A stretch of 64,000 bases of DNA from a virus. The notes under the pieces were generated by a model. That model was not told the DNA's origin, made no database searches, and was given only the letters and a program-made list of their open reading frames with translations. Of the stretch, positions 3,836-61,664 are shown piece after piece (the first letter of the stretch is position 1; each line of letters begins with the position of its first letter). Location: positions 16,968-80,967 of the IMG/VR virus record IMGVR_UViG_3300036845_000456. One strand, written 5' to 3'. A program made the position numbers and the translations under genes.

Positions 3836-5710
3836 ATGCCGATCAGTTTCGCCCAAATCCCGCAAAATCTGAAAGTCCCACTTTACTGGGTGGAGGTGGA
3901 CCCCTCCATGGCTGGTCTGCCGTCGATCAACCTGCGTGCGTTGATTGTTGGTACGGCGACCGGCGGCACGGCTGAGATGAACATCACGATTCCGATCGGG
4001 TCGCAGGCGATGTCGTCGCAGTTCTTTGGCGCCGGGTCGGAGATCGACCGGATGTTCAAAGCGTACTACGCGAATAATTTCGCAAACGAGGTTTGGGGAT
4101 TGCCTGTTCCGGCATCAGTCAACTCGGAAAAAGCCACAGGTGAAATCAAGATCACGTCGCCCTGTACGGCGGCGGGCACGATCGCACTCTACATCAGCGG
4201 CGAGCATGTGCCGACCAACATTGCCACCACCGACACCACGGACGACATCGCCAATGCGATTGTTGATTCGATCAACAATTGGTTTGGGATCGGGACGATT
4301 GGCAATGCGACGTCGTTGCCGGTGACGGCGACGATGACGCCAGCGGTGGCGAGCGCGTCGCAGGCCATCAACGCGGCGACGTGGAGCAACACGCCGACTG
4401 GGCAGGCGACCTACACCACTACGGCGCCGCACAACTTCACGGTCGGCGAGCAGGTGCAAATCACCGGCATTACGCCAGCCTCCTACAATGGGACGTTCGT
4501 TGCCCAAACCGGCACGACCGGATCAACCATTGTCGTGCCGATGCTGAACAACCCGGGAACTTACGGCTCGGGTGGAAGTGCCGCCGGACCGCCGACGGCG
4601 CCGTCGCAAGTCAATCTGCTGTGCAACTGGGCGGGCATCAGCGGCAACGACATTCCGATGATGTTGAACTACTACGGCTCGCGCGGCGGCGACGTGACGC
4701 CGGTCGGGCTCGGCATCACGGTTGATCCGTTCCTGACGGGCGGCACCGGCACGCCGGACTTCACGACCGCGCTCAATTCGCTCGGGAATGAACCTTACGA
4801 ATATGTTTGTATGCCTTACACGGACTCCGACAGTTTGTTTGTTTGGGAACAAGAATACGGGTTCTCAGACACGGGCCGTTGGGGTTGGGAGCGTCAACTA
4901 TTTGGTCACATTTTCTCGGCGCGGCGTGGGGTCAGCACCGGCTCCGCCGACAACGGTTATCCCGATCTTGTGCTGTGGGGCGAGACAAACAATTCGGGCG
5001 TGGTGTCGGTGATGGCGTTCGAGAACGCCACGCAGTCGCCGATGTTCGAGGCTGCGGCGGCCTACACCGCCAAGGCGCAGCGGGCATTGGTCAATGATCC
5101 GGCGCGGCCGTTGCAGAGTCTGTCCCTCAATCAAATCAAGCTGGCGCCGATCCACCAGCGATTTGATTTCCCTGAACTGAATTCGCTCGCCAGCAATGGG
5201 CTCGCGATCCAGATGCCGGGCACCGACGGACAGCCGATGATCGCCCGCGAACAGACCACCTACCAGTGGAACCTGTACGGCGCCACCGACGACGCCTACG
5301 AGTTGGTCACGACGCTGGCGACCTTGGCCAAGCTGATGCGCAATCAGAAGGCCATGGTGACCAGTTCGTTCCCGCGCCACAAGCTTGCCAATGACGGCAC
5401 CAAGTTTGGTCCAGGGCAAGCGATCGTTACGCCGGGAATCATCAAAGGCGCACTGGTCGCGCAATATCGCAATGATGAATTCAACGGCCTCGTGGAAAAT
5501 GTGGAGCTATTCAAGCAGTTCCTGATGGTCGAGCGAGACAGCGTGGACCCCAACCGCGCTAATGTCTTGTATCCGCCTGACCTTATCAATCAGTTGCGTA
5601 TCTTCGCAGTGCTGAATCAGTTCCGCTTGCAGTACGGCCGTGGAGTTGATGAGGCAATCATCGGTCCGGCGCCGGGGCCGTTCCTGGCCTCGTCGCAGGC
5701 CAACGGCTAG
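3836..5710 (+). CDS. Contractile tail sheath protein (Mu gpL-like)
   Basis: MPISFAQIPQNLKVPLYWVEVD start, DPARPLQSL, and PPDLINQLRIFA C-terminus. Confidence 0.95.
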   Translation: MPISFAQIPQNLKVPLYWVEVDPSMAGLPSINLRALIVGTATGGTAEMNITIPIGSQAMSSQFFGAGSEIDRMFKAYYANNFANEVWGLPVPASVNSEKATGEIKITSPCTAAGTIALYISGEHVPTNIATTDTTDDIANAIVDSINNWFGIGTIGNATSLPVTATMTPAVASASQAINAATWSNTPTGQATYTTTAPHNFTVGEQVQITGITPASYNGTFVAQTGTTGSTIVVPMLNNPGTYGSGGSAAGPPTAPSQVNLLCNWAGISGNDIPMMLNYYGSRGGDVTPVGLGITVDPFLTGGTGTPDFTTALNSLGNEPYEYVCMPYTDSDSLFVWEQEYGFSDTGRWGWERQLFGHIFSARRGVSTGSADNGYPDLVLWGETNNSGVVSVMAFENATQSPMFEAAAAYTAKAQRALVNDPARPLQSLSLNQIKLAPIHQRFDFPELNSLASNGLAIQMPGTDGQPMIAREQTTYQWNLYGATDDAYELVTTLATLAKLMRNQKAMVTSSFPRHKLANDGTKFGPGQAIVTPGIIKGALVAQYRNDEFNGLVENVELFKQFLMVERDSVDPNRANVLYPPDLINQLRIFAVLNQFRLQYGRGVDEAIIGPAPGPFLASSQANG

Positions 5711-5802
5711 ACCAACAACAATCAAAAAACCAAACAGTCAACCCAAGCTGACCAAGCTCGGTGCGGAGCGACGTCGCATAACCGCAGCGAGGATATAACC
5801 CC

Positions 5803-6168
5803 ATGGCACAGCGCTTTGCTGGAATCGCCTTCCTAAACGTGGACGGCGCGCAACTGGCTTTGCGTGGAAATTTCACTGTGTCGCCATCTCCGGTCGAGCG
5901 AACCATGATCGCCGGCCAGGATGGCGTTCACGGCTATCAGGAACTTCCACGCGTGCCCTACATCGAGGGCGACATCTCGACCGTTCCCGGCTTCTCGTTG
6001 GAAGGGTTGCTAACAGAAACTGACAGTACTGTTGTTGCTCAATTGGCAAACGGGATGCAGTACACACTTTCTGGAGCAACTTGCAAAGGCGGCTTCGAAG
6101 CCAACACCCGCGATGGTCAAGTGCGGGTTAGGTGGGAAGGACTGATCTGCGACGAGTTGCCGATCTAA
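5803..6168 (+). CDS. Tail tube protein (Mu gpM-like)
   Basis: AGIAFLNVDG, GQDGVHGYQE, QLANG and VRWEG motifs; follows the sheath. Confidence 0.9.
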   Translation: MAQRFAGIAFLNVDGAQLALRGNFTVSPSPVERTMIAGQDGVHGYQELPRVPYIEGDISTVPGFSLEGLLTETDSTVVAQLANGMQYTLSGATCKGGFEANTRDGQVRVRWEGLICDELPI

Positions 6169-31794: not shown

Positions 31795-33366
31795 CTAGGC
31801 GTCCGTCCCGACGTCGATCACGTCGCCCCAAGGCAACGTGCTTTTCAGGTAGGTCACGATGCGAGGGTCGCCATACGCCGCCCAAAGGACGGGCGCCTGC
31901 GGTTCCGGGCCAGGGTCGCCAATCTCAAGATCGGTCAGCGCCACGATCAGCGAGCAGTCTGGATCGTTTTCATCAATCCACTGGAACGCTGGTCGCAAGT
32001 CCGTGCCGCCACGGCCGACCGCCTTGAACTCGACTTGGTCGCCGTCGAGATAGCGATCGACCGCATTGACCCGCGTGTCGTTGTAGACGACCACGGCTTC
32101 CGAGATGATGCCCGCGTCCATCGCCGCCTGAACCTCGTTGCCGACTTTGTTCAGGACGTCGTCAGACATGGACAGCGACGTATCAACAAGAAACGCGACT
32201 TTGTTGATGCCGTCGCGCTGCGTGCCGGGCAGCACGAACCCGGTGTGTGCGAACCGGCGATTCGGTCGGTTCCACGTTTCTGAGCGGCTGGCGCCCGCGT
32301 CGAAAAACTGGCGCATTTCTTCGCGCCAATCCTCGGTCGGCGTCTTGCGCCGCTCAAGTTCCGACTCCCAATGGCCGGGCAAGCAGCCGGCCTTCTTGGC
32401 GAGCGCAGCGGCTTGATGCGCGATGACGTCCCAATGCGCGTCGAGATCGGGGGCCTGTTCAGCGGGCGCGTCGAGCACGCCACCGCAATCCCAAGCCTGT
32501 TGCTCATAGCCGGGGCGCGGCGTAGCATTGCCCTCCCCGTCAGCGTCTGCGTCCTCGCCCACGTCCTCGCCGACGTCAGCGCCGTCGCCTTCGCCTTCGT
32601 TAGTGCCGCCGTCCTCGTCACCGTCGTTGCCCTCGTCGCCGTCTTCGTTTTCGTCAACGTCGCCGTCACCGCCAGCGCCATCGGCACCGTCGTCGGCATC
32701 GCCGTCGTCAACGTCGCCGCCGTCGGCATCGTCCGCGTCACTGTCTGCGTCACCGTCAGCGTTTGCGTCAGCGGCTTCGTCTTCGTCACCGGCATCGCCG
32801 TCGTCACCGTCAGCGTCATCGGCAACGTCGTCGTCAGCGTCTCCGTCTTCGTTGCTGCCAGCGTCATCGCCATCGTCTGCGTCCACGGCATCGTCTTCGT
32901 CACCGCCAGCGTCATCGGCAGCGTCTTCTTGTTGCTGCTGTTGCTGTTCCTCGATTTCCAAGACGCGGTAGATGTCTTCGGTCGCCATGCCGGCAAACTC
33001 GGGACGGTTCAGCACCCAATCGGGGAGCTTGAACCCTTCCGCGAGAATGTCAGGGTTGATCGAATAATCGCACGCCTTGTTCCAACGCAGCGGATCGCGC
33101 CCACGGCGCCGCGTCGAATGGTGGCGGGCATCGTGTTCGCTTTCGTGAACTTGGATGCCTTCCAGGAACTCTTGCGACAACTCGCAAACGAATTGCGGGT
33201 TGTAGTAGTGTTTGATCGAGTCGGTGGCCATGCGTGGAATTGACCAGCATGGCACCGGCTCGACGTTCGCGACCAGCACGCCATAAAACTTGCGTGCTTG
33301 AATGATGGCCGCGCGCGCCTTCATCACCTTGTCTTTGGCGACGCGCTCCATTTCGAGGCGGTTCAT
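31795..33366 (-). CDS. DUF2201-type metallopeptidase-VWA protein with an acidic linker
   Basis: MATD, HESEH (HExxH), WNKACDYSIN, VDTSLSM MIDAS-like motif and GRGGTD. Confidence 0.85.
   Translation of the reverse strand: MNRLEMERVAKDKVMKARAAIIQARKFYGVLVANVEPVPCWSIPRMATDSIKHYYNPQFVCELSQEFLEGIQVHESEHDARHHSTRRRGRDPLRWNKACDYSINPDILAEGFKLPDWVLNRPEFAGMATEDIYRVLEIEEQQQQQQEDAADDAGGDEDDAVDADDGDDAGSNEDGDADDDVADDADGDDGDAGDEDEAADANADGDADSDADDADGGDVDDGDADDGADGAGGDGDVDENEDGDEGNDGDEDGGTNEGEGDGADVGEDVGEDADADGEGNATPRPGYEQQAWDCGGVLDAPAEQAPDLDAHWDVIAHQAAALAKKAGCLPGHWESELERRKTPTEDWREEMRQFFDAGASRSETWNRPNRRFAHTGFVLPGTQRDGINKVAFLVDTSLSMSDDVLNKVGNEVQAAMDAGIISEAVVVYNDTRVNAVDRYLDGDQVEFKAVGRGGTDLRPAFQWIDENDPDCSLIVALTDLEIGDPGPEPQAPVLWAAYGDPRIVTYLKSTLPWGDVIDVGTDA
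32538..32927 (+). repeat. CGYC-NN hexamer array H1 (65 units, one phase), antisense within the VWA gene linker
   Basis: cgtcag cgtctg cgtcct cgccca cgtcct cgccga cgtcag cgccgt ... cgtctt. Confidence 0.85.
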
Positions 33367-37796: not shown

Positions 37797-38219
37797 TTGC
37801 GCGACGTGTTGATCATCGCGCCGCTGGCGTTCGGCGTCGGATTCTTTATCGGGGATTCCTGGCAAGACTCTGCGCCGGTCGCGGTGTCCAGTGGCGGCCT
37901 CACGATCGTGCAGCGGTTGGCGCCAACGCCATCGTCAACGCCACCGCCATCGCCGACGCCCACGTCAACGTCTACGCCTTCGATCTCGGCCTCGCCCACG
38001 CCGTCGCCAGCGTCAACGTCTCTGTCTGCGGCCACGGCTACGTCATCGCCTCCGTCAACGTCCACGTCAACGCCTTCGCCTTCGCCATCGCCAGCGTCCT
38101 CGCCTTCGTCTGCGGCAGCGTCCTCGCCTTCGTCAACGCGCAATATCTGCTCGCCCGGGTGGCGCGAGAATTTCTATCGCCACGGAGTTCTGCACTGGCG
38201 GTGTCGCTATGGCCGATGA
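37797..38219 (+). CDS. Membrane-anchored protein whose linker is a CGYCNN array
   Basis: Transmembrane N-terminus, P/S/T linker, C-terminal IC..W..WRCR motif; start codon uncertain. Confidence 0.5.
   Translation: MRDVLIIAPLAFGVGFFIGDSWQDSAPVAVSSGGLTIVQRLAPTPSSTPPPSPTPTSTSTPSISASPTPSPASTSLSAATATSSPPSTSTSTPSPSPSPASSPSSAAASSPSSTRNICSPGWRENFYRHGVLHWRCRYGR
37921..38136 (+). repeat. CGYC-NN hexamer array H2 (36 units, one phase)
   Basis: cgccaa cgccat cgtcaa cgccac cgccat cgccga cgccca cgtcaa cgtcta cgcctt ... Confidence 0.9.
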
Positions 38220-38403
38220 TCAATGGACCGCGCAAGACAAGTTGGCCTGCATCGAGCGCGAATTGCGCTACCGGCTGCGCGTCTATCCGCGCCGGGTGGC
38301 CGAAGGCAAAATGACAGAACAGCAAATGCGGCGCGAGATTTCCATCATGGAAGCAATCGTCGCCGATCTGCGGGCCAATGCTGAGAGGGACCGGTTGATA
38401 TGA
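38209..38403 (+). CDS. Hypothetical protein
   Basis: KLACIERELRYRLRVYPRRVAEGKM pattern. Confidence 0.65.
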   Translation: MADDQWTAQDKLACIERELRYRLRVYPRRVAEGKMTEQQMRREISIMEAIVADLRANAERDRLI

Positions 38404-38535
38404 CGGATCAGGAAACGGAAACGGGATACGGGCTGACGGTCGGCTTTGATCCGCTGTTGCGCAGCTTGCGCCGCCATTTTCTCAAACCACGCTACGACAT
38501 TCCTGATAAGACAACCGCGCGCGCCATCAAAACTT

Positions 38536-38841
38536 CGCCGACGTCCTCGTCAGCGTCTACGCCGACGGCCTCGTCATCGTCATCGCCCACGTCAACGCTC
38601 TCGCCACCGCCCCTGCCTTCGCCAACGTCGTCGCCATCGTCACCGCCCTCGCCAGCGCCAACGTCTTCGCCCTCGGTGCGTCCGTGATCCAGCATCTACG
38701 GCATCGACTATGTCCTCGTTACCGTCATCGTCTCCGTCAATGCCCGCGCTAGAGCCGACGCCACCGCCTACGCCGACGCCAACGCCCTCGTCATCGCCGA
38801 CGCACCGTCAACGCCTTCGCCGACGTCTTCGCCAACGTTCT
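38536..38841 (+). repeat. CGYC-NN hexamer array H3 (~48 units), immediately upstream of RAMP gene B
   Basis: 23 in-phase units, then phase slips, continuing past the stop at 38687; ends ~21 nt before ATG 38863. Confidence 0.9.
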
Positions 38842-38862
38842 AACCACGGGAGTAACTAAGCC

Positions 38863-39519
38863 ATGCAGCGCGCCTACCAAATCGCATTCATCAAAGGCTA
38901 CATCGCGCATCCGTACTGGCCGCAGCGCGAGCGGCTGATCAACATCCAGAAGGAGTCCGGGACCAAGCGCGTGCGCTCGGAGGAAAAGCGCGTCAAGGTC
39001 TTGCGCGACTATCTGGCCACCAAAAACATGAGCATGGCCGATTACGAAGCGCTTGAGGAAGAAGCCGATCGCCAGTTCTATACGGCGGCCGATCTCGACA
39101 ATGCCGACGGCCACGACACGACCGAGATTGTGATCCCGGCGCATCAGATATACGGCATGGCGGCGCAAGCTTGCGGTCTGGCCTCAAGTTCGATCCGCAT
39201 TGCCCGCGCCGAAAATCTGCGCACGGTCCTGACCGTGTCCGACATATTCACCGGCAAGCACAAAGCAGACGGCGTATGGGAGCGTTTCGTCGTCGTCACC
39301 GCTGGCGCCGGCAACAAGCTGAGCAATCAAAGAGCGCTGCGCAGCAACGAGTATGTTGGTCCGTTTCAGGCGACATTTGAAGTGAAGTTCAGCGAGGAAG
39401 TCATCGATCCGAAAAAGGTTGACGATTTTCTCGGCTTCTGTGGCCGCGAGATCGGCGTTGGCGCCAGCCGCAAGCTCGGTTGGGGCCGCTTCGAGATCGG
39501 CAAGGCCAAAGCCAAATGA
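38863..39519 (+). CDS. Stand-alone Cas7/Csm3-like RAMP protein B
   Basis: IVIPAHQIYG resembles the RAMP IPGSSLKG motif; C-terminal Gly-rich loop IGVGASRKLGWGRFEI. Confidence 0.75.
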   Translation: MQRAYQIAFIKGYIAHPYWPQRERLINIQKESGTKRVRSEEKRVKVLRDYLATKNMSMADYEALEEEADRQFYTAADLDNADGHDTTEIVIPAHQIYGMAAQACGLASSSIRIARAENLRTVLTVSDIFTGKHKADGVWERFVVVTAGAGNKLSNQRALRSNEYVGPFQATFEVKFSEEVIDPKKVDDFLGFCGREIGVGASRKLGWGRFEIGKAKAK

Positions 39520-52694: not shown

Positions 52695-54626
52695 ATGGCG
52701 TTCTTGGATCGGCTGCTACGATCTGCAAGCAGGCTTTGGAGTGAATGGCGGGCGCGTGCACGCCATGTGGGGTTCAGGCTGCTTGGCGAGTGGCCGGGGC
52801 CGTGGCAGGATAGGGGCTCGCCCACGCCAGCGCCAACGTCAGCGTCTTCGCTTCCGCCAGCGCCCACGCCAACGCCTACGCCAACGTCGCCGACGTCCAC
52901 GCCATTGCCCGCGCCAACGCCCACGTCGCCGTCTACGCCGACGCCCTCGTCACCGCCAACGCCAACGCCCGAGCCGCCGCCATCGTCTACGTCCTCGTCG
53001 TCGTCCTCGCCTTCGCCTTCGCCGACGCCTTCGTCACCGCCACCGTCCTCGCCGACGTCCACGCCATCGCCCGCGCCCTCGCCATCGTCACCGCCGACGC
53101 CATCGCCAGCGCCAACGCCCACGACTTCGGTCCCGCCATCGTCTACGTCACCGCCTTCGTCTACGTCTACGTCACCGCCAGCGCCCGAGCCGGTGCCAGC
53201 ATCGCTGCTGGCTCCGGTGTTCCAACTCCCGGCCTATCGCAAAGAAAAGTGGGTCACGCCGAAACCGGCCGACATTGCGCCGAAACCGGTCAAGCGCACG
53301 GTGCTGCATCGCACCGAACCCGCCAAGCCGCGCCAGCCAAGACCACAGGCGCCGGTACTGACCGACGATCCCGAGCAGTGGGGTCAATATTACTTCCGCG
53401 ACGCGATCCTCGATCAACTCGATGTCTTTTGGGTCTATCTAAAGCGGATGAAGCGCGGCGACCGCGACAGCTACGATCTATTGCATCAAATCGGCATTCA
53501 GATGGTGCCGTTTTCAGCCACGCATAACTTCGACAAGTGGCTCGGCGGTAGCGAGAACGTTGAACTGTCGCCGTGGTTTCGCCAGCGCCGTCCCAGTTTT
53601 GGCGCCATCGCCTACGGCTTCGATGATATCGCCAAGGCCGAAGATCGCATGACCATCGTGGAAAGCGCAGAAGAACCGCCGGACCATGTTTATGCTGACG
53701 TTGAACAGCGACTGAAAGCCGAAGGGGTTCTCGGCAAGCGTCCGGCTTATTTCGTCGCCACGTCCTACAAGTTCGACAAGCGCATCGAAGATCGGCCGAT
53801 GACGATGTTCACGCCGCGCTTCCTGTATTTTCGCAAGATGCAGCGGACGCCGCCAGAACTCGAACACCTGACTGGTGGCGATACCTATTTCATGTGCGTG
53901 TACTGGGATCGGGCCGACAAAAAAATCCACAAACGGTACCAGAGGCGGCGCGGCGGCATCCCGCAAGAGTATGGTGTATTCATCGAGCATGTGACTGGAC
54001 GCGTGCGGATTCTGAAAACCAAGATACACGAGAAGGTCACGATCAAGTGGTCGAAAGGACCTTATGGCGGCAAGTGTTCAGAACCAACGGAATTCATCAA
54101 CACGCACTGGGACGTGCCTGATCGCTTCCTGCGTTGGACGCATCGCGATATGGGCGACATCGAGCCGGAAGATTATTTGCGCCGCATGTTCATCAACGCC
54201 GCCAATCTATACGAATCGGCGGCGCTCGGCTCGGTGGTGCGCGTTGCCGTACACAAGAACGACTTGACCGCGACATTCGGTGTCGAGATCAGGCGCATGG
54301 CGCATTTCTTCCGCGATCGCGACGTCGCGGTGACGACGAAAGGCAGGCGCCGCCCGGTGCTGCGTATGGTGCGGGCGCACATGCGCAAGAACGGCACCAA
54401 GGTGAAGACCTACTTCAGCGGCATGAAGAAGTTCACCTGGGCTGGCTACAAAGTGGAGATCAGCGTCCCCGGCAAGGATCATTTTCATCTGCCGGAAGTC
54501 AACGTTGGTGCCATCTCGCTCGGCGCCAAAGAGCGCGTTGACGAGCGCGGCTTTCTCACCAATCAGCAATACGGAAAGCTTCTCGTCGAGAAAATGCAAC
54601 AGGGAGCAGGAGTACGCAAACCATGA
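52695..54626 (+). CDS. Large hypothetical protein with an N-terminal P/S/T tract encoded by a CGYCNN array
   Basis: 643 aa ORF with GGAG RBS; C-terminal VRAH.R motif. Confidence 0.6.
   Translation: MAFLDRLLRSASRLWSEWRARARHVGFRLLGEWPGPWQDRGSPTPAPTSASSLPPAPTPTPTPTSPTSTPLPAPTPTSPSTPTPSSPPTPTPEPPPSSTSSSSSSPSPSPTPSSPPPSSPTSTPSPAPSPSSPPTPSPAPTPTTSVPPSSTSPPSSTSTSPPAPEPVPASLLAPVFQLPAYRKEKWVTPKPADIAPKPVKRTVLHRTEPAKPRQPRPQAPVLTDDPEQWGQYYFRDAILDQLDVFWVYLKRMKRGDRDSYDLLHQIGIQMVPFSATHNFDKWLGGSENVELSPWFRQRRPSFGAIAYGFDDIAKAEDRMTIVESAEEPPDHVYADVEQRLKAEGVLGKRPAYFVATSYKFDKRIEDRPMTMFTPRFLYFRKMQRTPPELEHLTGGDTYFMCVYWDRADKKIHKRYQRRRGGIPQEYGVFIEHVTGRVRILKTKIHEKVTIKWSKGPYGGKCSEPTEFINTHWDVPDRFLRWTHRDMGDIEPEDYLRRMFINAANLYESAALGSVVRVAVHKNDLTATFGVEIRRMAHFFRDRDVAVTTKGRRRPVLRMVRAHMRKNGTKVKTYFSGMKKFTWAGYKVEISVPGKDHFHLPEVNVGAISLGAKERVDERGFLTNQQYGKLLVEKMQQGAGVRKP
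52819..53199 (+). repeat. CGYC-NN hexamer array H4 (~62 units)
   Basis: cgccca cgccag cgccaa cgtcag cgtctt ... with one 3-nt slip. Confidence 0.85.
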
Positions 54627-58183: not shown

Positions 58184-58564
58184 GTGAGCGATCTCCTTCA
58201 ACAGCTTGAGGACATGAAGGCCGATTGGGCCAGCAACTCGCGCGAACTGATGGCGCTCAATGCCGAGCTTGGCCCGCTGCAAACGCGCCGCTACGGCATC
58301 ATCGACGCAATCAAGCACACGCATGCTTGTTGCGTGCAACGCGATCAATATGAGCGCCAGCAAGTCTATGTGGTCGGCTACCGTCGTGCCGGCGCGGTCG
58401 AGCGGTTCAAGCTGTTTGCTGATCTCAATGAGATCGACGTCGATCTCGGCCCGCTGAACGTCCAACGCCGTGAACTGCTCAGATTGGATAAATACTTTAG
58501 GTTGACGAGCGAAGCTGTCCGCAAAGCCATGAGTGACGCGGCTAAAGGTTCAACCCGACGATGA
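58184..58564 (+). CDS. Hypothetical coiled-coil protein
   Basis: 126 aa ORF converging on the array. Confidence 0.5.
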   Translation: MSDLLQQLEDMKADWASNSRELMALNAELGPLQTRRYGIIDAIKHTHACCVQRDQYERQQVYVVGYRRAGAVERFKLFADLNEIDVDLGPLNVQRRELLRLDKYFRLTSEAVRKAMSDAAKGSTRR

Positions 58565-58585
58565 TGGATTAGATCATCGCCGGGT
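58553..58585 (-). terminator. Hairpin closing the GGY-NN array (probable terminator or 3' stem)
   Basis: Minus strand ACCCGGCGATGAT-loop-ATCATCGTCGGGT (one G-U pair), just after the last GGCAGGC. Confidence 0.55.
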
Positions 58586-58595
58586 CAATCCCTTC

Positions 58596-60249
58596 GCCTG
58601 CCTTGCCCGGCCATGGCTCGCCTTCGCCCTGCCGTGCCTGACCCGGCATAGCCAAGCCTTGCCTGCCATGCCTCGCCGGGCCCTACCAACCAAGCCTTGC
58701 CGTGCCTTGCCCCGATCACCGGGCCAAACCAAACCATGCCTGCCCTGCCTCGCCTCGACCAGCCGTGCAGCGTCTGGCCCGACCGTGCCGCGACGTGCCG
58801 CGCCTCACCACGCCTGCCGCGTCCACACCATGCCTAATTACGCACTGCCCGGCCCAGCGACATGACGCCATGACGTGCCCGATTGCGCCCTGCCCTGCCT
58901 GCCTTACCGCGCCTTACCAAGCTCTACCTTCGCCATGCCTCTTTGCGGCTCGCCCAGTTGCGCCTTGCCTGCCGTGCCCGATCACGTCACGCCTCGCCTC
59001 GCCAGATTCTGCCGAGCCTTGCCTCGCCCCGCCAAGTCACACCGCCGGACCTAGCCCTACCGAGCCACACAAGCCCCGCCGTACCGCGCCTTGTCACACC
59101 AAGCCAAACCGCGCCTGCCCGGCCAAGCCCCGCCATGCCACAACCTGCTGCGCCGAGACGTACCCTGCCGATCGAGCCTAGCCGAACGCACCGAGCCCTG
59201 CCTGCCGCGCCTTGCCGAACCACGTTACGCCGGGCCATGCCACGCCCGAAGCGCCTATTCTCGCCGGGCCTACCCGTGCCTGCCTTGCCTAAGCCGCGCC
59301 GGGCCACACCCCGCTATGCCAGGGGCTGCCGTGCCGCACCGAGACGCGCCGCCCGAGCCACGCCTGCCATGCCTTGTCCGGCGTGCCCCGGCCGGGCCCC
59401 ACCTTGCCCCGCCGTGCCTGCCTAGCCTGACCTTGTCCAGCCGAGCCGTGCACGGCCCCGCCTGACCTAATCCGGCGTCGTCCTGCCGAACCGCGCCACG
59501 CCTGCCCCGCCAAGCCCTGCCCGGCCATGCCACATCCGAGCCTCGCCTCGTCTTGCCGCGCCTCGCCTGCCATGCCTGCCCTGCCTTGCCGCGCCTTGCC
59601 GCGCCCTGCCAGACCCGACCCGGGCAGGCCCCGCCTCGCCTCGCTGGACCTTGCCTGCCTCGCCAGGGCAAGCCCCGCCTCGGCAGGCCCTGCCGCGTCA
59701 TGCCCGGCCTCGCTATGTCAAGCCGGACCGCGCCTTACCGCGCCTGCCTCCCGCGACAGGCCGCGCCGTGCCATGCCTCTTTTCGCCCAGTGTGACCTTC
59801 CGTGCCACACCAGACCGCGTCTCACCGCGCCTCGAAGCGCCGCCCAGTGCTCGCCTGCCCTGCCTCGCCTACGCCAGACCGCGCCTTGCCGCGACGTCAC
59901 AGGCCCGACCGCGCCCGGCCATGCCACGCCTGCCTCGCCACGCCTAACCCCCTTCGGGCCCGGCTACGCCTCGTTGCGTCAAACCGGGCCACGCCTTGCC
60001 TGCCTCACCAGACCACGCCTTGATCCGCCATGCCTGACCGTATCTCACCCCGCCGCTGAAACGCCCAGTCACGCCACGCCTGCCATGCCTGCCCAAGCCA
60101 AGCCCGCCCATACCCCGCCGCTGCCCGGCCTCACCGAGTGCGCCGGGCCCTGCCATGCCGGAACACGTCCCGCCTGCCATGCCTGAACTCGTCACGATGT
60201 GACGCCACGTGCCATGTAATACCCCGCCTCGCCTCGCCTGCCATGCCTG
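58596..60249 (-). repeat. Non-coding GGY-NN pentamer array, ~21 units delimited by GGCAGGC; candidate guide-RNA array
   Basis: Example unit (59574-59659): GGCAGGC AA GGT CC AGC GA GGC GA GGC GG GGC CT GCC CG GGT CG GGT CT GGC AG GGC GC GGC AA GGC GC GGC AA GGC AG GGCAGGC. Starts ~5 nt after the accessory gene stop. Confidence 0.9.
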
Positions 60250-60254
60250 ATATT

Positions 60255-60791
60255 TCATCCCGGTGGCGGCGCATGCGTTTCACCGTCCTTGCCGCCACGT
60301 CGCCGCGACGGTTTGATCCGCGCACCCGCCGCAACAATGTGTTGTAAGCCGGTTTCGAGTTGTTCTGATAGGCCGGGGAAGCGTTGGTCGAGAAACATCG
60401 CCATGTTGCGCAGTCGTGTGATAACGTCACGACATCGCTCGATCCCGTCAGCAACAACTTCCTTGGCTTGCGTAACCGTCAGTTCCGGCGCAGACAAATC
60501 AAGATAGGATTGACTGCGTTTCGGCACAAACGGATCACGAACATAAACCACCGACGAGATCGTCATTGGTGTATCAACAACAACAACAGTGACGAAGCGG
60601 AGTAGTTTGCGTGCTCGGTCAAGCCGTTGCCGGTGTGCCGCGACGTGATCATCCCAAATGAATTCCTTGTGTAAGGGATGATCCTTTGCGCGCGCGGCCT
60701 CAACGATCAGTTGGGGCGAAAGGCGGCCGCGATTTTTCTTGCGGATGTCCGCCAGTGCCTTGTGGACGCGCGCTTGCCGGTGCGATCTCAT
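60255..60791 (-). CDS. RAMP-associated accessory protein
   Basis: GRLSPQLIVEAARAKDHPLHKEFIWDD..AA...R..RAR.L conserved motif; lies between RAMP A and the array. Confidence 0.75.
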   Translation of the reverse strand: MRSHRQARVHKALADIRKKNRGRLSPQLIVEAARAKDHPLHKEFIWDDHVAAHRQRLDRARKLLRFVTVVVVDTPMTISSVVYVRDPFVPKRSQSYLDLSAPELTVTQAKEVVADGIERCRDVITRLRNMAMFLDQRFPGLSEQLETGLQHIVAAGARIKPSRRRGGKDGETHAPPPG

Positions 60792-60797
60792 GACGGT

Positions 60798-61664
60798 TTA
60801 CTCCGTGCCAATATACTCTGCGTCAGAGCCGTTGCCGCCGCGTTCAACGATCGTGCGGCTGGTGGCTGGCAACGCTAGATCAACATCAGCAAGCAGACCG
60901 TCCATCTCACGACGTTTCACTTCCTCATTGAACCACATCAAGATGTCGGCTGTGTCCTGATCAAAGAAAACCGGCTTTTCATAAGCCTTTTGCTGGACCG
61001 CGCGACCTTGCAGTTTGACCACGCTGCGGAAGTCGGCGTCATTATCGGCAACGATCTTGAACGAGCCGTATGGGCCGCCACGCTCGCCACGCCAATCGCC
61101 GATACCAACGATCACGCCGGCTGCTCCGAGCAAGTTACTGATCGTTCGCTCGCTTAGTACGTTCTTCATGTACTGGATCGAAATGCGACACGCCCACTGT
61201 GGAAAGATCGGCCGCGTGCGCACATCCGGCGTCCGATTCATGTCAGAATTTCGAACCATCGCAGAAAAGATTTGCGGCACGCCATATAAGTCGATGGTGA
61301 CATCCATGATTTTCGTCAAGCGCTCGATTTGCGCGCGCTTGGCGCCAGGAATATCGATCGCCGCTTGTGCCAAGCTCCCATGCAAGGCGCCATTGGGAAC
61401 GTGAAACAACGTCTTTTCTGGTTTGCGGCAGAGATAGAACGAACTGCGATATTCCTTGAGCGGATCATGCTTGAGCCGCTGTTCCAAACTGGCGCGGTTC
61501 TGTTGCGGTGATGGCAAAATCAGTTCCTGCCAAGCCTTGAACGGAAACCGGTGCATGATCAGCGGCGACGTGCCAAGCAAGTTGGCGCGCACTTCGCCCA
61601 TTTTGATCTCTTGGACTTCGATTTGCGTCGTTTCGGTCTTTTTACGTGCCGGTGCTTTAGCCAT
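60798..61664 (-). CDS. Stand-alone Cas7-like RAMP protein A
   Basis: N-terminal L.GTSPLIMH, HVPNGALHG, VR..DVRTRP.F..W, and Gly-rich loop AGVIVGIGDWRGERGGPYGSF. Confidence 0.8.
   Translation of the reverse strand: MAKAPARKKTETTQIEVQEIKMGEVRANLLGTSPLIMHRFPFKAWQELILPSPQQNRASLEQRLKHDPLKEYRSSFYLCRKPEKTLFHVPNGALHGSLAQAAIDIPGAKRAQIERLTKIMDVTIDLYGVPQIFSAMVRNSDMNRTPDVRTRPIFPQWACRISIQYMKNVLSERTISNLLGAAGVIVGIGDWRGERGGPYGSFKIVADNDADFRSVVKLQGRAVQQKAYEKPVFFDQDTADILMWFNEEVKRREMDGLLADVDLALPATSRTIVERGGNGSDAEYIGTE

What the first reader, a model, noticed from the sequence alone, without database searches (positions are those of the whole stretch)
38536..39519. Second, divergent RAMP gene preceded by a different code: a CGYC-NN hexamer array
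Seen: a ~300 nt array of CGYC plus two variable bases, ending ~21 nt before the ATG of a second RAMP-like gene (IPAHQIYG; GVGASRKLGWGRF). The array runs through the stop codon of ORF 38400-38687 and contains frame-breaking 5-nt units (cggtg, cgcac), so protein coding does not maintain it. Known: CRISPR Cas7 backbones bind crRNA with a 6-nt step. Inference: this is a second guide architecture (4 fixed + 2 variable nt) paired with its own RAMP, distinct from the pentamer system. I do not recognise it as described, so it may be the more novel of the two.
Basis: partly seen in the sequence, partly recalled or inferred. Interest (0 to 1): 0.93.

Follow-up and report, generated by a model that had tools for sequence, protein, structure and literature searches.

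The report
Six-base VIPR-like phage guide array
A soil phage carries a small CRISPR-type (Cas7/Vipr-like) RNA-binding protein gene preceded by a repeat array of six-base units (four fixed bases, two free), which is most likely a six-base version of the VIPR RNA-guided silencers described in 2026, so far reported only with five-base units.

Summary
Window 38536-38841 is a + strand array of about 42 CG(Y)C-NN hexamers in three phase-shifted blocks. It ends 21 nt before the ATG of ORF 38863-39519. Simulations gave no such array by chance.

The ORF folds confidently into a Cas7 RAMP (Z 12.3 to Csm3). It aligns weakly but colinearly with the Vipr protein of phage SUSP1.

In 23 of 26 related loci with readable upstream DNA, a high-entropy CG-N-C/NN array sits 15-60 nt upstream on the gene's strand. 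This holds even though the upstream genes differ. In 4 of 5 other near-complete genomes, clean arrays occur almost only next to this gene.

Between two related phages, NN positions differ by 30%, core positions by 3% and non-array DNA by 4.5%. Array indels are multiples of 6. Reading phase relative to neighbouring genes varies, and some relatives carry a +1 shift every 7-13 units, so protein coding does not maintain the array.

The best reading is a VIPR-like guide array with a 6-nt step, which I found in none of the four VIPR papers searched here. RNA binding, processing and targets are not shown, and my target searches found nothing.

Earlier notes of this scan report six-base VIPR-like arrays in other genomes.

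The parts
38536..38673 (+). Hexamer array block 1: 23 CG(Y)C-NN units. It is also read as the P/S/T tail of ORF 38400-38687.
38674..38722 (+). Break in the array: the 5-nt unit cggtg, degenerate units and the TGA of ORF 38400-38687. The phase shifts here.
38723..38805 (+). Hexamer array block 2: about 13 units, some degenerate, ending in the 5-nt unit cgcac (38801-38805).
38806..38841 (+). Hexamer array block 3: 5 perfect units plus 1 imperfect unit.
38842..38862 (+). A 21-nt leader with a ribosome-binding site (GGGAG at 38848-38852).
38863..39519 (+). Cas7/Vipr-like RAMP gene (218 aa). It has a beta1 His16, a helical-bundle insert, a thumb hairpin (GxGxKLSNQRALR) and a G-loop (GVGASRKLGWGRF).
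37921..38142 (+). A further array of the same kind (36 units) 0.7 kb upstream, before the 64-aa phrog_19667 gene.
32538..32927 (+). A remote array of the same kind and orientation (65 units). It lies antisense inside the acidic linker of the minus-strand DUF2201 metallopeptidase/VWA gene. Its link to the system is not established.
52819..53217 (+). A remote array of the same kind (about 62 units), read as a P/S/T linker of ORF 52695-54626. Its link to the system is not established.

Best explanation
The array and ORF 38863-39519 form one module, a VIPR-like RNA-guided system with a six-base step.

Shown here:
- The protein has a Cas7/Vipr-type RAMP fold.
- A co-oriented array of CG-N-C plus NN units is its conserved neighbour across distant relatives.
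- Selection keeps the C, G and C of each unit while NN and unit number turn over quickly.
- No reading frame is kept.

Inferred by analogy with the published VIPR structures:
- The array is transcribed, probably together with the gene.
- One protomer binds each hexamer.
- The thumb, the G-loop and helix 1 hold the four fixed bases.
- The two free bases of successive units are displayed, and together they read a gapped sequence in the DNA of a competing element, which is then silenced.
- Phase-breaking 5-nt or 7-nt units, or short degenerate stretches, would separate individual guides.

The G-loop differs from Vipr exactly where SUSP1 Vipr contacts its two guanines. SUSP1 and this phage's other RAMP have GDWR, whereas this family has GASR. 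That fits a different fixed motif.
For: Fold:
- AF2 gave pLDDT 90 and pTM 0.81.
- Foldseek against the PDB returned only Cas7-family proteins at the top (type VII Cas7, Cmr4, Csm3, Cas7-11), with E about 1e-6.
- VIA-align gave Z 12.3, 148 residues aligned, rmsd 3.0 A to Csm3.
- The best BFVD matches are viral RAMPs.

Link to Vipr:
- hhalign of the family profile against SUSP1 Vipr (YP_009199429.1) gave E 2.7e-4 and probability 42% over 67 columns, from the thumb to beta4.
- Against the family of this window's other RAMP, hhalign gave E 0.002 over 138 colinear columns.

Association:
- 19 of 22 IMG/VR loci, 3 of 3 MAG loci with readable upstream DNA, and the window carry a high-entropy array. 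It ends 15-60 nt before the start codon on the gene's strand.
- About 11 loci also have an array starting just after the stop codon.
- The upstream gene families differ between loci.
- In near-complete genomes G048 and G052 the only clean array in 48-66 kb is the one upstream of the gene. In G059 all clean arrays flank it.

Specificity:
- At least 119 viral contigs hold 12 perfect CGYCNN units, but almost all are simple repeats (NN entropy under 2 bits).
- Half of the six loci with the highest NN entropy (about 3 bits or more) lie in contigs that carry this gene.

Constraint:
- L002 versus L003 mismatches are 29.9% at NN, 3.0% at core positions and 4.5% outside arrays. Array indels are 66, 12, 6 and 84 nt.

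Not coding:
- The phase in frame with the gene is R-x, A/V-x or P/S/T in different loci.
- L167 has a 7-nt CGCCCGY unit every 7-13 units, and L012 and L013 also have +1 shifts.
- L010 and L022 use CGGC/CGAC-NN, which changes A/V to G/D in one frame.

Precedent:
- VIPR consists of a Vipr RAMP plus GGY/NN repeats, with one protomer per repeat (bioRxiv 10.64898/2026.04.26.720920 and .720927).
Against: - There is no evidence that the array RNA exists as a separate species or binds the protein.
- I found no conserved structured 3' tail like that of type II vrRNAs. Only 15-60 nt, mostly a ribosome-binding site, separate the array from the gene.
- No conserved accessory (vap-like) neighbour was found.
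- Arrays reach 90 units, far longer than the published vrRNAs of 9-16 repeats. Punctuation is regular only in some lineages.
- In this genome, same-strand arrays also lie inside real coding linkers (32538-32927 antisense in the VWA gene; 52819-53217). A pure guide model does not predict this.
- Some arrays are well-formed small ORFs. In L008 the ORF has an AAGGAG site and ATG, and its stop overlaps the next start. In L002, L003 and L018 the ORF overlaps its neighbours at both start and stop.
- NN is A+T-rich and almost never GG, unlike codon positions 1 and 2 of a GC-rich proteome.
- The sequence link to Vipr is weak (hhalign probabilities 14-42%).
Confidence: 0.6

Rival explanations
1. The array RNA or DNA is a cis element for the RAMP but not a programmable guide. 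The protein might coat its own leader or trailer to control its translation or stability, or to build a scaffold. Alternatively it might bind the arrays as DNA sites. Under this reading NN is simply unconstrained.
For: The arrays flank the gene itself, upstream in 23 of 26 loci and downstream in about 11. No target was found under any skip rule. No tail and no accessory gene were found. NN composition is biased (A+T-rich, no GG), as expected if NN only has to avoid imitating the core. Type IV-B Cas7-like filaments assemble on non-CRISPR RNA (PMC7937560, abstract).
Against: NN diverges 6-10 times faster than the core and faster than the flanks. Arrays are cut into blocks of 6-13 units in some lineages. 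Both resemble guide sets more than a passive binding lattice. The published relatives of this architecture are programmable guides.
Confidence: 0.2
2. The arrays are translated low-complexity tails, linkers or small proteins (P/S/T-rich, A/V-x or acidic on the other strand). Replication slippage makes them and disordered regions tolerate them. Their position next to the RAMP gene would then reflect a local hot spot.
For: In the window, block 1 is in frame with ORF 38400-38687. The arrays at 52819-53217, L001 3087-3230 and L001 4350-4913 lie in long ORFs in the P/S/T phase. The array at 32538-32927 is the acidic linker of a real DUF2201 protein. In L008, L002, L003 and L018 the arrays are neat small ORFs in the A/V-x frame.
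Against: No frame explains an invariant C1, G2 and C4. These would be third or second codon positions, depending on the frame, while both NN bases vary freely. The phase relative to neighbours is mixed. Phase shifts occur inside the window's array and in L005, L007, L011 and L019. L167, L012 and L013 have regular +1 units. Neighbouring units differ, unlike products of slippage. Several complete genomes have a clean array only beside this gene.
Confidence: 0.12
3. The RAMP-like protein acts without the array, for example as a decoy subunit that poisons host type III or type I CRISPR complexes. The array would then be an unrelated genomic feature of these GC-rich phages.
For: The best structural matches are Csm3 subunits of type III complexes. 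Phages are known to encode mimics of Cas components (my own knowledge, not tested here).
Against: The adjacency is kept across proteins only 37-64% identical to the window's and with different neighbours. Arrays are always on the gene's strand. G052 has a single array in 66 kb, 44 nt upstream of the gene.
Confidence: 0.05

Closest known systems
VIPR systems (Vipr protein plus vrRNA), with type II of Escherichia phage SUSP1 as exemplar (bioRxiv 10.64898/2026.04.26.720920, 10.64898/2026.04.26.720927, 10.64898/2026.10.15.759431)
   Same: Both have a phage-encoded lone minimal RAMP with an RRM core, a helical bundle, a thumb and a G-loop. In both, a tandem array on the gene's strand flanks the gene, with a short fixed motif alternating with two hypervariable bases. 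Neither has a CRISPR array or other cas genes nearby. The G-loop Arg that SUSP1 Vipr uses for its pyrimidine (R179) aligns with the invariant R203.
   Different: The unit here is 6 nt (CG-Y/R-C + NN), not 5 nt (GGY + NN or another pentamer). The residues that contact guanine in SUSP1 (D177, W178) are A201 and S202 here, and the thumb is 6 residues longer in the alignment. I found no conserved 3' tail and no vap gene. Arrays are longer, abut the start codon and often lie inside open frames. Expression, binding and targets are untested.
This window's other RAMP (60798-61664, minus strand) with its GGY-NN pentamer arrays
   Same: It is in the same genome and has the same module logic. The colinear profile match has E 0.002.
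   Different: That protein keeps the GDWR G-loop seen in SUSP1 Vipr. It has weak tblastn matches to SUSP1-type phage proteins and sits beside 5-nt units. The two families are not detectably similar by BLASTP (E 0.37).
Cas7 backbone subunits of class 1 CRISPR effectors (Csm3, Cmr4, type VII Cas7)
   Same: These are the best structural matches (Z 10-12, about 150 aligned residues). They bind RNA with a 6-nt step, the same step as the array here.
   Different: Those proteins bind spacers without sequence preference. They belong to multi-subunit complexes encoded with CRISPR arrays and other cas genes, none of which was seen here.
Type IV-B Csf2 filament on non-CRISPR RNA (PMC7937560)
   Same: A Cas7-like filament assembles on RNA that is not a crRNA.
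   Different: That RNA is heterogeneous host RNA, not a dedicated periodic array. The system is plasmid-borne and has a Cas11 partner.

Membership tests
VIPR | The protein is a minimal RAMP with an RRM core, a thumb and a glycine-rich loop. | tested here: met
   The AF2 model has pLDDT 90. All top Foldseek and VIA-align matches are Cas7-family RAMPs, with Z up to 12.3. The thumb hairpin spans residues 137-165 and the G-loop residues 198-210.
VIPR | The protein is detectably related to a characterised Vipr protein. | tested here: inconclusive
   hhalign of the family profile against SUSP1 Vipr gave E 2.7e-4, probability 42%, over 67 columns. Against the family of the window's pentamer-linked RAMP it gave E 0.002, probability 14%. 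No Vipr structure was in the fold libraries searched.
VIPR | The gene is virus-encoded and stands outside CRISPR-Cas loci. | tested here: met
   The genome is an 81-kb virus record that CheckV rates 100% complete. No Rfam family, CRISPR repeats included, was found in 30000-64000. No conserved neighbouring gene family appears across loci. The whole genome was not scanned for cas genes.
VIPR | A tandem array flanks the gene on its strand, with a fixed motif alternating with a hypervariable NN. | tested here: met
   23 of 26 loci have one upstream and 26 of 28 on either side. Divergence is 30% at NN against 3% at the core.
VIPR | The repeat unit is a pentanucleotide (GGY/NN or a related 5-mer). 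| tested here: not met
   The unit is 6 nt in the window and in all relatives. The four VIPR papers searched report 5-nt units only.
VIPR | A conserved structured 3' tail caps each vrRNA. | tested here: inconclusive
   Reading of the array ends showed only a ribosome-binding site between array and gene. L167 blocks end in CGCCCGY. L017 and L021 share a spacer of about 50 nt. No covariance model was built.
VIPR | An accessory vap gene lies next to vipr. | tested here: not met
   All-against-all clustering of ORFs from -2.5 kb to +2 kb found no family shared beyond the close clade L001-L003 plus the window.
VIPR | The concatenated NN bases match natural targets under a gapped (1-nt skip) rule. 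| tested here: inconclusive
   Searches with skips of 0-3 nt against 1.4 Mb of local loci gave no excess over shuffled units. Hits at skip 4 were self or homologous arrays. Two 10-unit, 1-skip patterns found nothing in IMG/VR.
VIPR | The RNA is expressed and co-purifies with the protein, and it gives programmable repression. | not testable with these tools
   This needs an experiment.
Type III CRISPR-Cas Cas7 (Csm3/Cmr4) | The gene is encoded with Cas10, Cas5, Cas11 and a CRISPR array. | tested here: not met
   The neighbours are small phage genes with no Pfam match, or with matches unrelated to cas genes. No CRISPR repeat family was found.

The most novel reading that the evidence does not exclude
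This could be a distinct VIPR lineage in which each protomer reads a six-base unit, sequestering four bases (CG-Y/R-C) and displaying two. That would put the 6-nt step of CRISPR Cas7 backbones inside the VIPR world. It would also give one phage two orthogonal codes (GGY/NN and CGYC/NN). Some arrays would double as coding linkers of unrelated genes.
Probability: 0.45. Interest if true: 0.85.

Novelty: new variant of a known kind. Interest (0 to 1): 0.78.

Why it matters
VIPR was proposed in 2026 as the viral ancestor of CRISPR RAMPs, and it uses a gapped RNA code for DNA recognition. Every published example steps by five bases, while CRISPR Cas7 backbones step by six.

A natural Vipr-like family would matter in three ways if it steps by six, recognises a different four-base anchor, and has G-loop changes exactly at the guanine-contacting positions:
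- It would show how the code can be rewritten.
- It would supply a second, orthogonal programmable system.
- It may bear on how the 6-nt periodicity of CRISPR complexes arose.

Both types occur in one 81-kb phage, which makes a direct specificity test simple.

Tried and rejected
- **Diversity-generating retroelement idea** (NNC codons as mutated AAC): no reverse transcriptase was found in the complete genome.
- **Array as an N-terminal extension of the RAMP**: rejected, because the in-frame phase differs between loci and is often separated by a stop.
- **Generic CGYCNN x12 scan of IMG/VR**: at least 119 contigs matched, nearly all simple repeats. Only 2 of the 42 records searched hold the gene, so the bare pattern is not diagnostic and NN entropy is needed.
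- **Gapped target search** (skips 0-4, both strands, reversed order, shuffled controls) in 1.4 Mb of fetched loci: no signal beyond self and homologous arrays.
- **Two exact 10-unit, 1-skip patterns in IMG/VR**: 0 hits.
- **Rfam**: no family found.
- **Promoter and terminator scan**: nothing above the shuffled controls.
- **Sequencing runs**: no RNA holder was listed. Contigs from a related soil strain show rearranged arrays but could not be read out.
- **Homo-trimer prediction**: no verdict.
- **Co-occurrence of the VWA-linker array with the RAMP gene**: too few VWA homologs were found to test it.
- **Profile search of PDB sequences**: no significant hit.
- **Supplementary tables of the VIPR paper**: not held, so I could not check whether this protein family is among its 667 systems.

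Full report
**1. The observation**

The region 38536-38841 parses on the + strand into CG(Y)C plus two variable bases. There are three phase-coherent blocks:
- Block 1, 38536-38673, has 23 units.
- Block 2, 38723-38800, has about 13 units, some degenerate.
- Block 3, 38806-38841, has 5 perfect units and 1 imperfect unit.

The blocks are separated by the 5-nt units cggtg (38674-38678) and cgcac (38801-38805) and by a degenerate stretch. That stretch holds the stop codon of ORF 38400-38687.

In block 1, position 2 is G in 23 of 23 units. Positions 1 and 4 are C in 22 of 23. NN uses about 12 different dinucleotides.

Fifty second-order Markov simulations of the 81-kb genome produced no run of five perfect units. 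The real genome has nine on the + strand and one weak one on the other strand.

The pattern excludes stop codons in all three + frames. The stretch can therefore be read as P/S/T-rich, R-x or A/V-x, and an open frame carries no weight here. The array ends 21 nt before the ATG at 38863, with GGGAG at 38848-38852.

**2. The gene**

ORF 38863-39519 (218 aa) has no Pfam match and only a weak match to an uncharacterised PHROG. It has more than 288 homologs in metagenomes, and every source name given is 'hypothetical protein'. A search of cluster representatives found 132.

With a 32-sequence alignment, AlphaFold2 gave pLDDT 90 and pTM 0.81. The top Foldseek matches in the PDB are all Cas7-family RAMPs: type VII Cas7, Cmr4, Csm3 and Cas7-11, with E about 1e-6. 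VIA-align gives Z 12.3 to Csm3 (148 residues, rmsd 3.0 A), and all 50 listed entries are CRISPR Cas7-type proteins. In the viral structure library the three significant matches include a protein annotated as a RAMP.

**3. The array belongs with the gene**

I fetched 22 IMG/VR loci with relatives 37-64% identical to the window's protein, and 5 contigs from MAGs.
- With the core relaxed to CG-N-C, 19 of the 22 viral loci, the window, and 3 of 3 MAG contigs with readable upstream DNA have a high-entropy hexamer array. It ends 15-60 nt before the start codon, on the gene's strand.
- About 11 loci also have an array starting just after the stop codon.
- L012, L013 and L164 have only the downstream array. 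In L164 the contig ends 46 nt upstream of the gene.
- L004 has no clean array, and L166 holds only a gene fragment.
- L010 and L022 use CGGC/CGAC-NN rather than CGCC/CGTC-NN.

Clustering of all ORFs from -2.5 kb to +2 kb found no gene family shared beyond the close clade of L001-L003 and the window. What is conserved is therefore the pair of array and gene, not a wider synteny block.

I also read five near-complete genomes whole:
- G052 (66 kb) has a single array, 75 units long, 44 nt upstream of the gene.
- G048 has one clean array, 20 nt upstream.
- In G059 all clean arrays flank the gene.
- G047 and G049 each have one or two more arrays elsewhere.

The reverse test showed that the bare pattern is not specific. 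At least 119 viral contigs hold 12 perfect CGYCNN units, and only 2 of the 42 records searched encode the protein. Almost all of those arrays are simple repeats with NN entropy under 2 bits. Arrays in contigs with this gene have about 3-3.7 bits.

**4. What keeps the array**

L002 and L003 are related phages. Over 3.9 kb, mismatches are 4.5% outside arrays, 3.0% at array core positions and 29.9% at NN. The array indels are 66, 12, 6 and 84 nt (one search shows one array in detail). The C, G and C of each unit are thus under constraint, while NN and the number of units change fast.

Protein coding does not supply that constraint:
- In the three frames the invariant bases fall on different codon positions, including third positions, while both NN bases vary.
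- The phase that is in frame with the RAMP gene is R-x in L002, L003, L008, L016 and the window. It is A/V-x in L001, L006, L010 and L020, and P/S/T in L005, L009 and L014.
- Phase shifts occur inside the arrays of the window, L005, L007, L011 and L019.
- In L167 every block of 7-13 hexamers ends in a 7-nt unit CGCCCGY. L012 and L013 show the same +1 steps.

A frameshift every 40-80 nt is incompatible with a protein but fits a set of discrete RNA units.

I first considered a diversity-generating retroelement, because one frame reads NNC codons. The complete genome has no reverse transcriptase.

**5. What is known**

A note from an earlier agent of this scan pointed me to VIPR, and I read the papers myself.

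VIPR systems (bioRxiv 10.64898/2026.04.26.720920) consist of a lone viral RAMP, called Vipr, and vrRNAs. The vrRNAs are made of 9-16 YNNGG units plus a 3' tail. The NN bases read double-stranded DNA with one base skipped per unit, and this silences rival phages and satellites.

The structural paper (10.64898/2026.04.26.720927) shows one protomer per repeat. According to that paper, H17, R138, D177, W178 and R179 hold the GGY motif, and a helical bundle (K33) takes the skipped target base.

All seven types are described with pentanucleotide motifs. A later survey of 99 clusters with a 5-nt period found further pentamers, and its discussion of other period lengths names 7, 8 and 10 nt. I found no 6-nt VIPR-like array in these papers.

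**6. Comparison with Vipr**

I located SUSP1 Vipr (YP_009199429.1) through a weak tblastn hit of the window's other RAMP.

The profile of the present family aligns to SUSP1 Vipr from the thumb to the last strand (E 2.7e-4, probability 42%). In that alignment:
- the SUSP1 G-loop GVGDWR pairs with GVGASR here;
- the pyrimidine-contacting Arg is kept (R179 pairs with the invariant R203);
- the two guanine-contacting residues are replaced (D177 and W178 pair with A201 and S202);
- the thumb is six residues longer here.

The window's other RAMP (60798-61664) keeps GDWR and sits beside GGY-NN pentamers. This correspondence between G-loop and array type is an inference from two alignments, not a test, but it is what a change of anchor motif would predict. 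A nearly invariant His16 after beta1 and an invariant Lys30 in the helical insert sit where H17 and K33 do in SUSP1. I did not obtain an alignment covering that part.

**7. Mechanism proposed**

The array is transcribed on the gene's strand. Each protomer binds one hexamer, holds the four anchor bases and displays NN. Successive NN bases read a gapped target in a competitor's DNA. Phase-breaking units delimit individual guides. Only the fold, the association and the constraint pattern are shown. Everything else is inferred from the published relatives.

**8. What does not fit**

- I found no conserved tail and no accessory gene.
- Arrays are much longer than published vrRNAs.
- Several arrays are tidy small ORFs with overlapping start and stop codons.
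- The window's genome has two large arrays of the same kind and strand inside real coding linkers. One is antisense in the acidic linker of the DUF2201/VWA gene. The other is a P/S/T linker of ORF 52695-54626.
- The stop-free design means ribosomes entering in any frame would read through. This might protect a C-rich, G-poor RNA from Rho, but that is speculation.
- Gapped target searches were negative. The database that could be searched with mismatches was only 1.4 Mb.

**9. Verdict**

The system is best filed as a new variant (six-base step, CG-N-C anchor) of the VIPR kind, not as a member of any described VIPR type.

Earlier notes of this scan (for example e1-5946813, a GGC-NN-C array ahead of a lone RAMP, which matches the L010 type seen here) report six-base VIPR-like arrays in other genomes. 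Within this scan it is therefore a recurring family.

Noticed in passing
window 60798-61664 (-) and 58500-60300: The window's other RAMP (288 aa) has the G-loop GIGDWR, as in SUSP1 Vipr (GVGDWR). It has weak tblastn matches to 155 phage records, including SUSP1 and SUSP2 (E 0.4), and stronger ones to Gordonia phages (1e-16). It lies beside 5-nt periodic arrays, so it looks like a canonical VIPR. That would put two RAMP-plus-array modules in one phage.
   Followed up: partly
window 32538-32927: A 65-unit CGYC-NN array on the + strand lies inside the minus-strand DUF2201_N/VWA gene, where it is read as a D/G/A/E acidic linker. It has the same orientation as all other arrays of the genome even though the gene runs the other way.
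   Followed up: partly
window 52819-53217: An array of about 62 units is read as a P/S/T linker between a 40-aa N-terminus and a large C-terminal domain without a Pfam match, in ORF 52695-54626.
   Followed up: no
L022 5190-6560: The RAMP homolog is interrupted after about 20 codons by roughly 850 nt that encode a LAGLIDADG-type homing endonuclease, then resumes. This is probably an intron, or a mobile insertion in the gene.
   Followed up: no
L167 2640-2950 and 3654-4300: The arrays on both sides of the RAMP gene are cut into blocks of 7-13 hexamers. Each block ends in CGCC-CG plus one extra base (a 7-nt unit). This is the clearest punctuation seen in the family.
   Followed up: partly
L017 3711-3750 and L021 5759-5797: Two array blocks are separated by a shared spacer of about 50 nt (ttcctgcccatcag...catcaaggtttcc). 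The spacer contains an ATG that opens the A/V-x frame (MP[AV]IKVS...). It could be a handle, a promoter or a small ORF start.
   Followed up: no
window 38209-38403; L001 about 5500-5990: The 64-aa phrog_19667 gene lies upstream of the module in the window. In L001-L003 its homolog runs straight into an array in the P/S/T frame.
   Followed up: no
protein P0112: One homolog has a P/T/S-rich insertion (about 15 residues) in the variable loop before the IPAHQ motif. It looks like a short array-like insert inside the RAMP gene itself.
   Followed up: no
L010 5508-5957; protein alignment: The lineage with CGGC/CGAC-NN arrays has G-loop changes (GVGTSRKMGYGRF) and PYFP in place of PYWP. This may be covariation of the protein with the third anchor base, but it rests on a single lineage.
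   Followed up: partly
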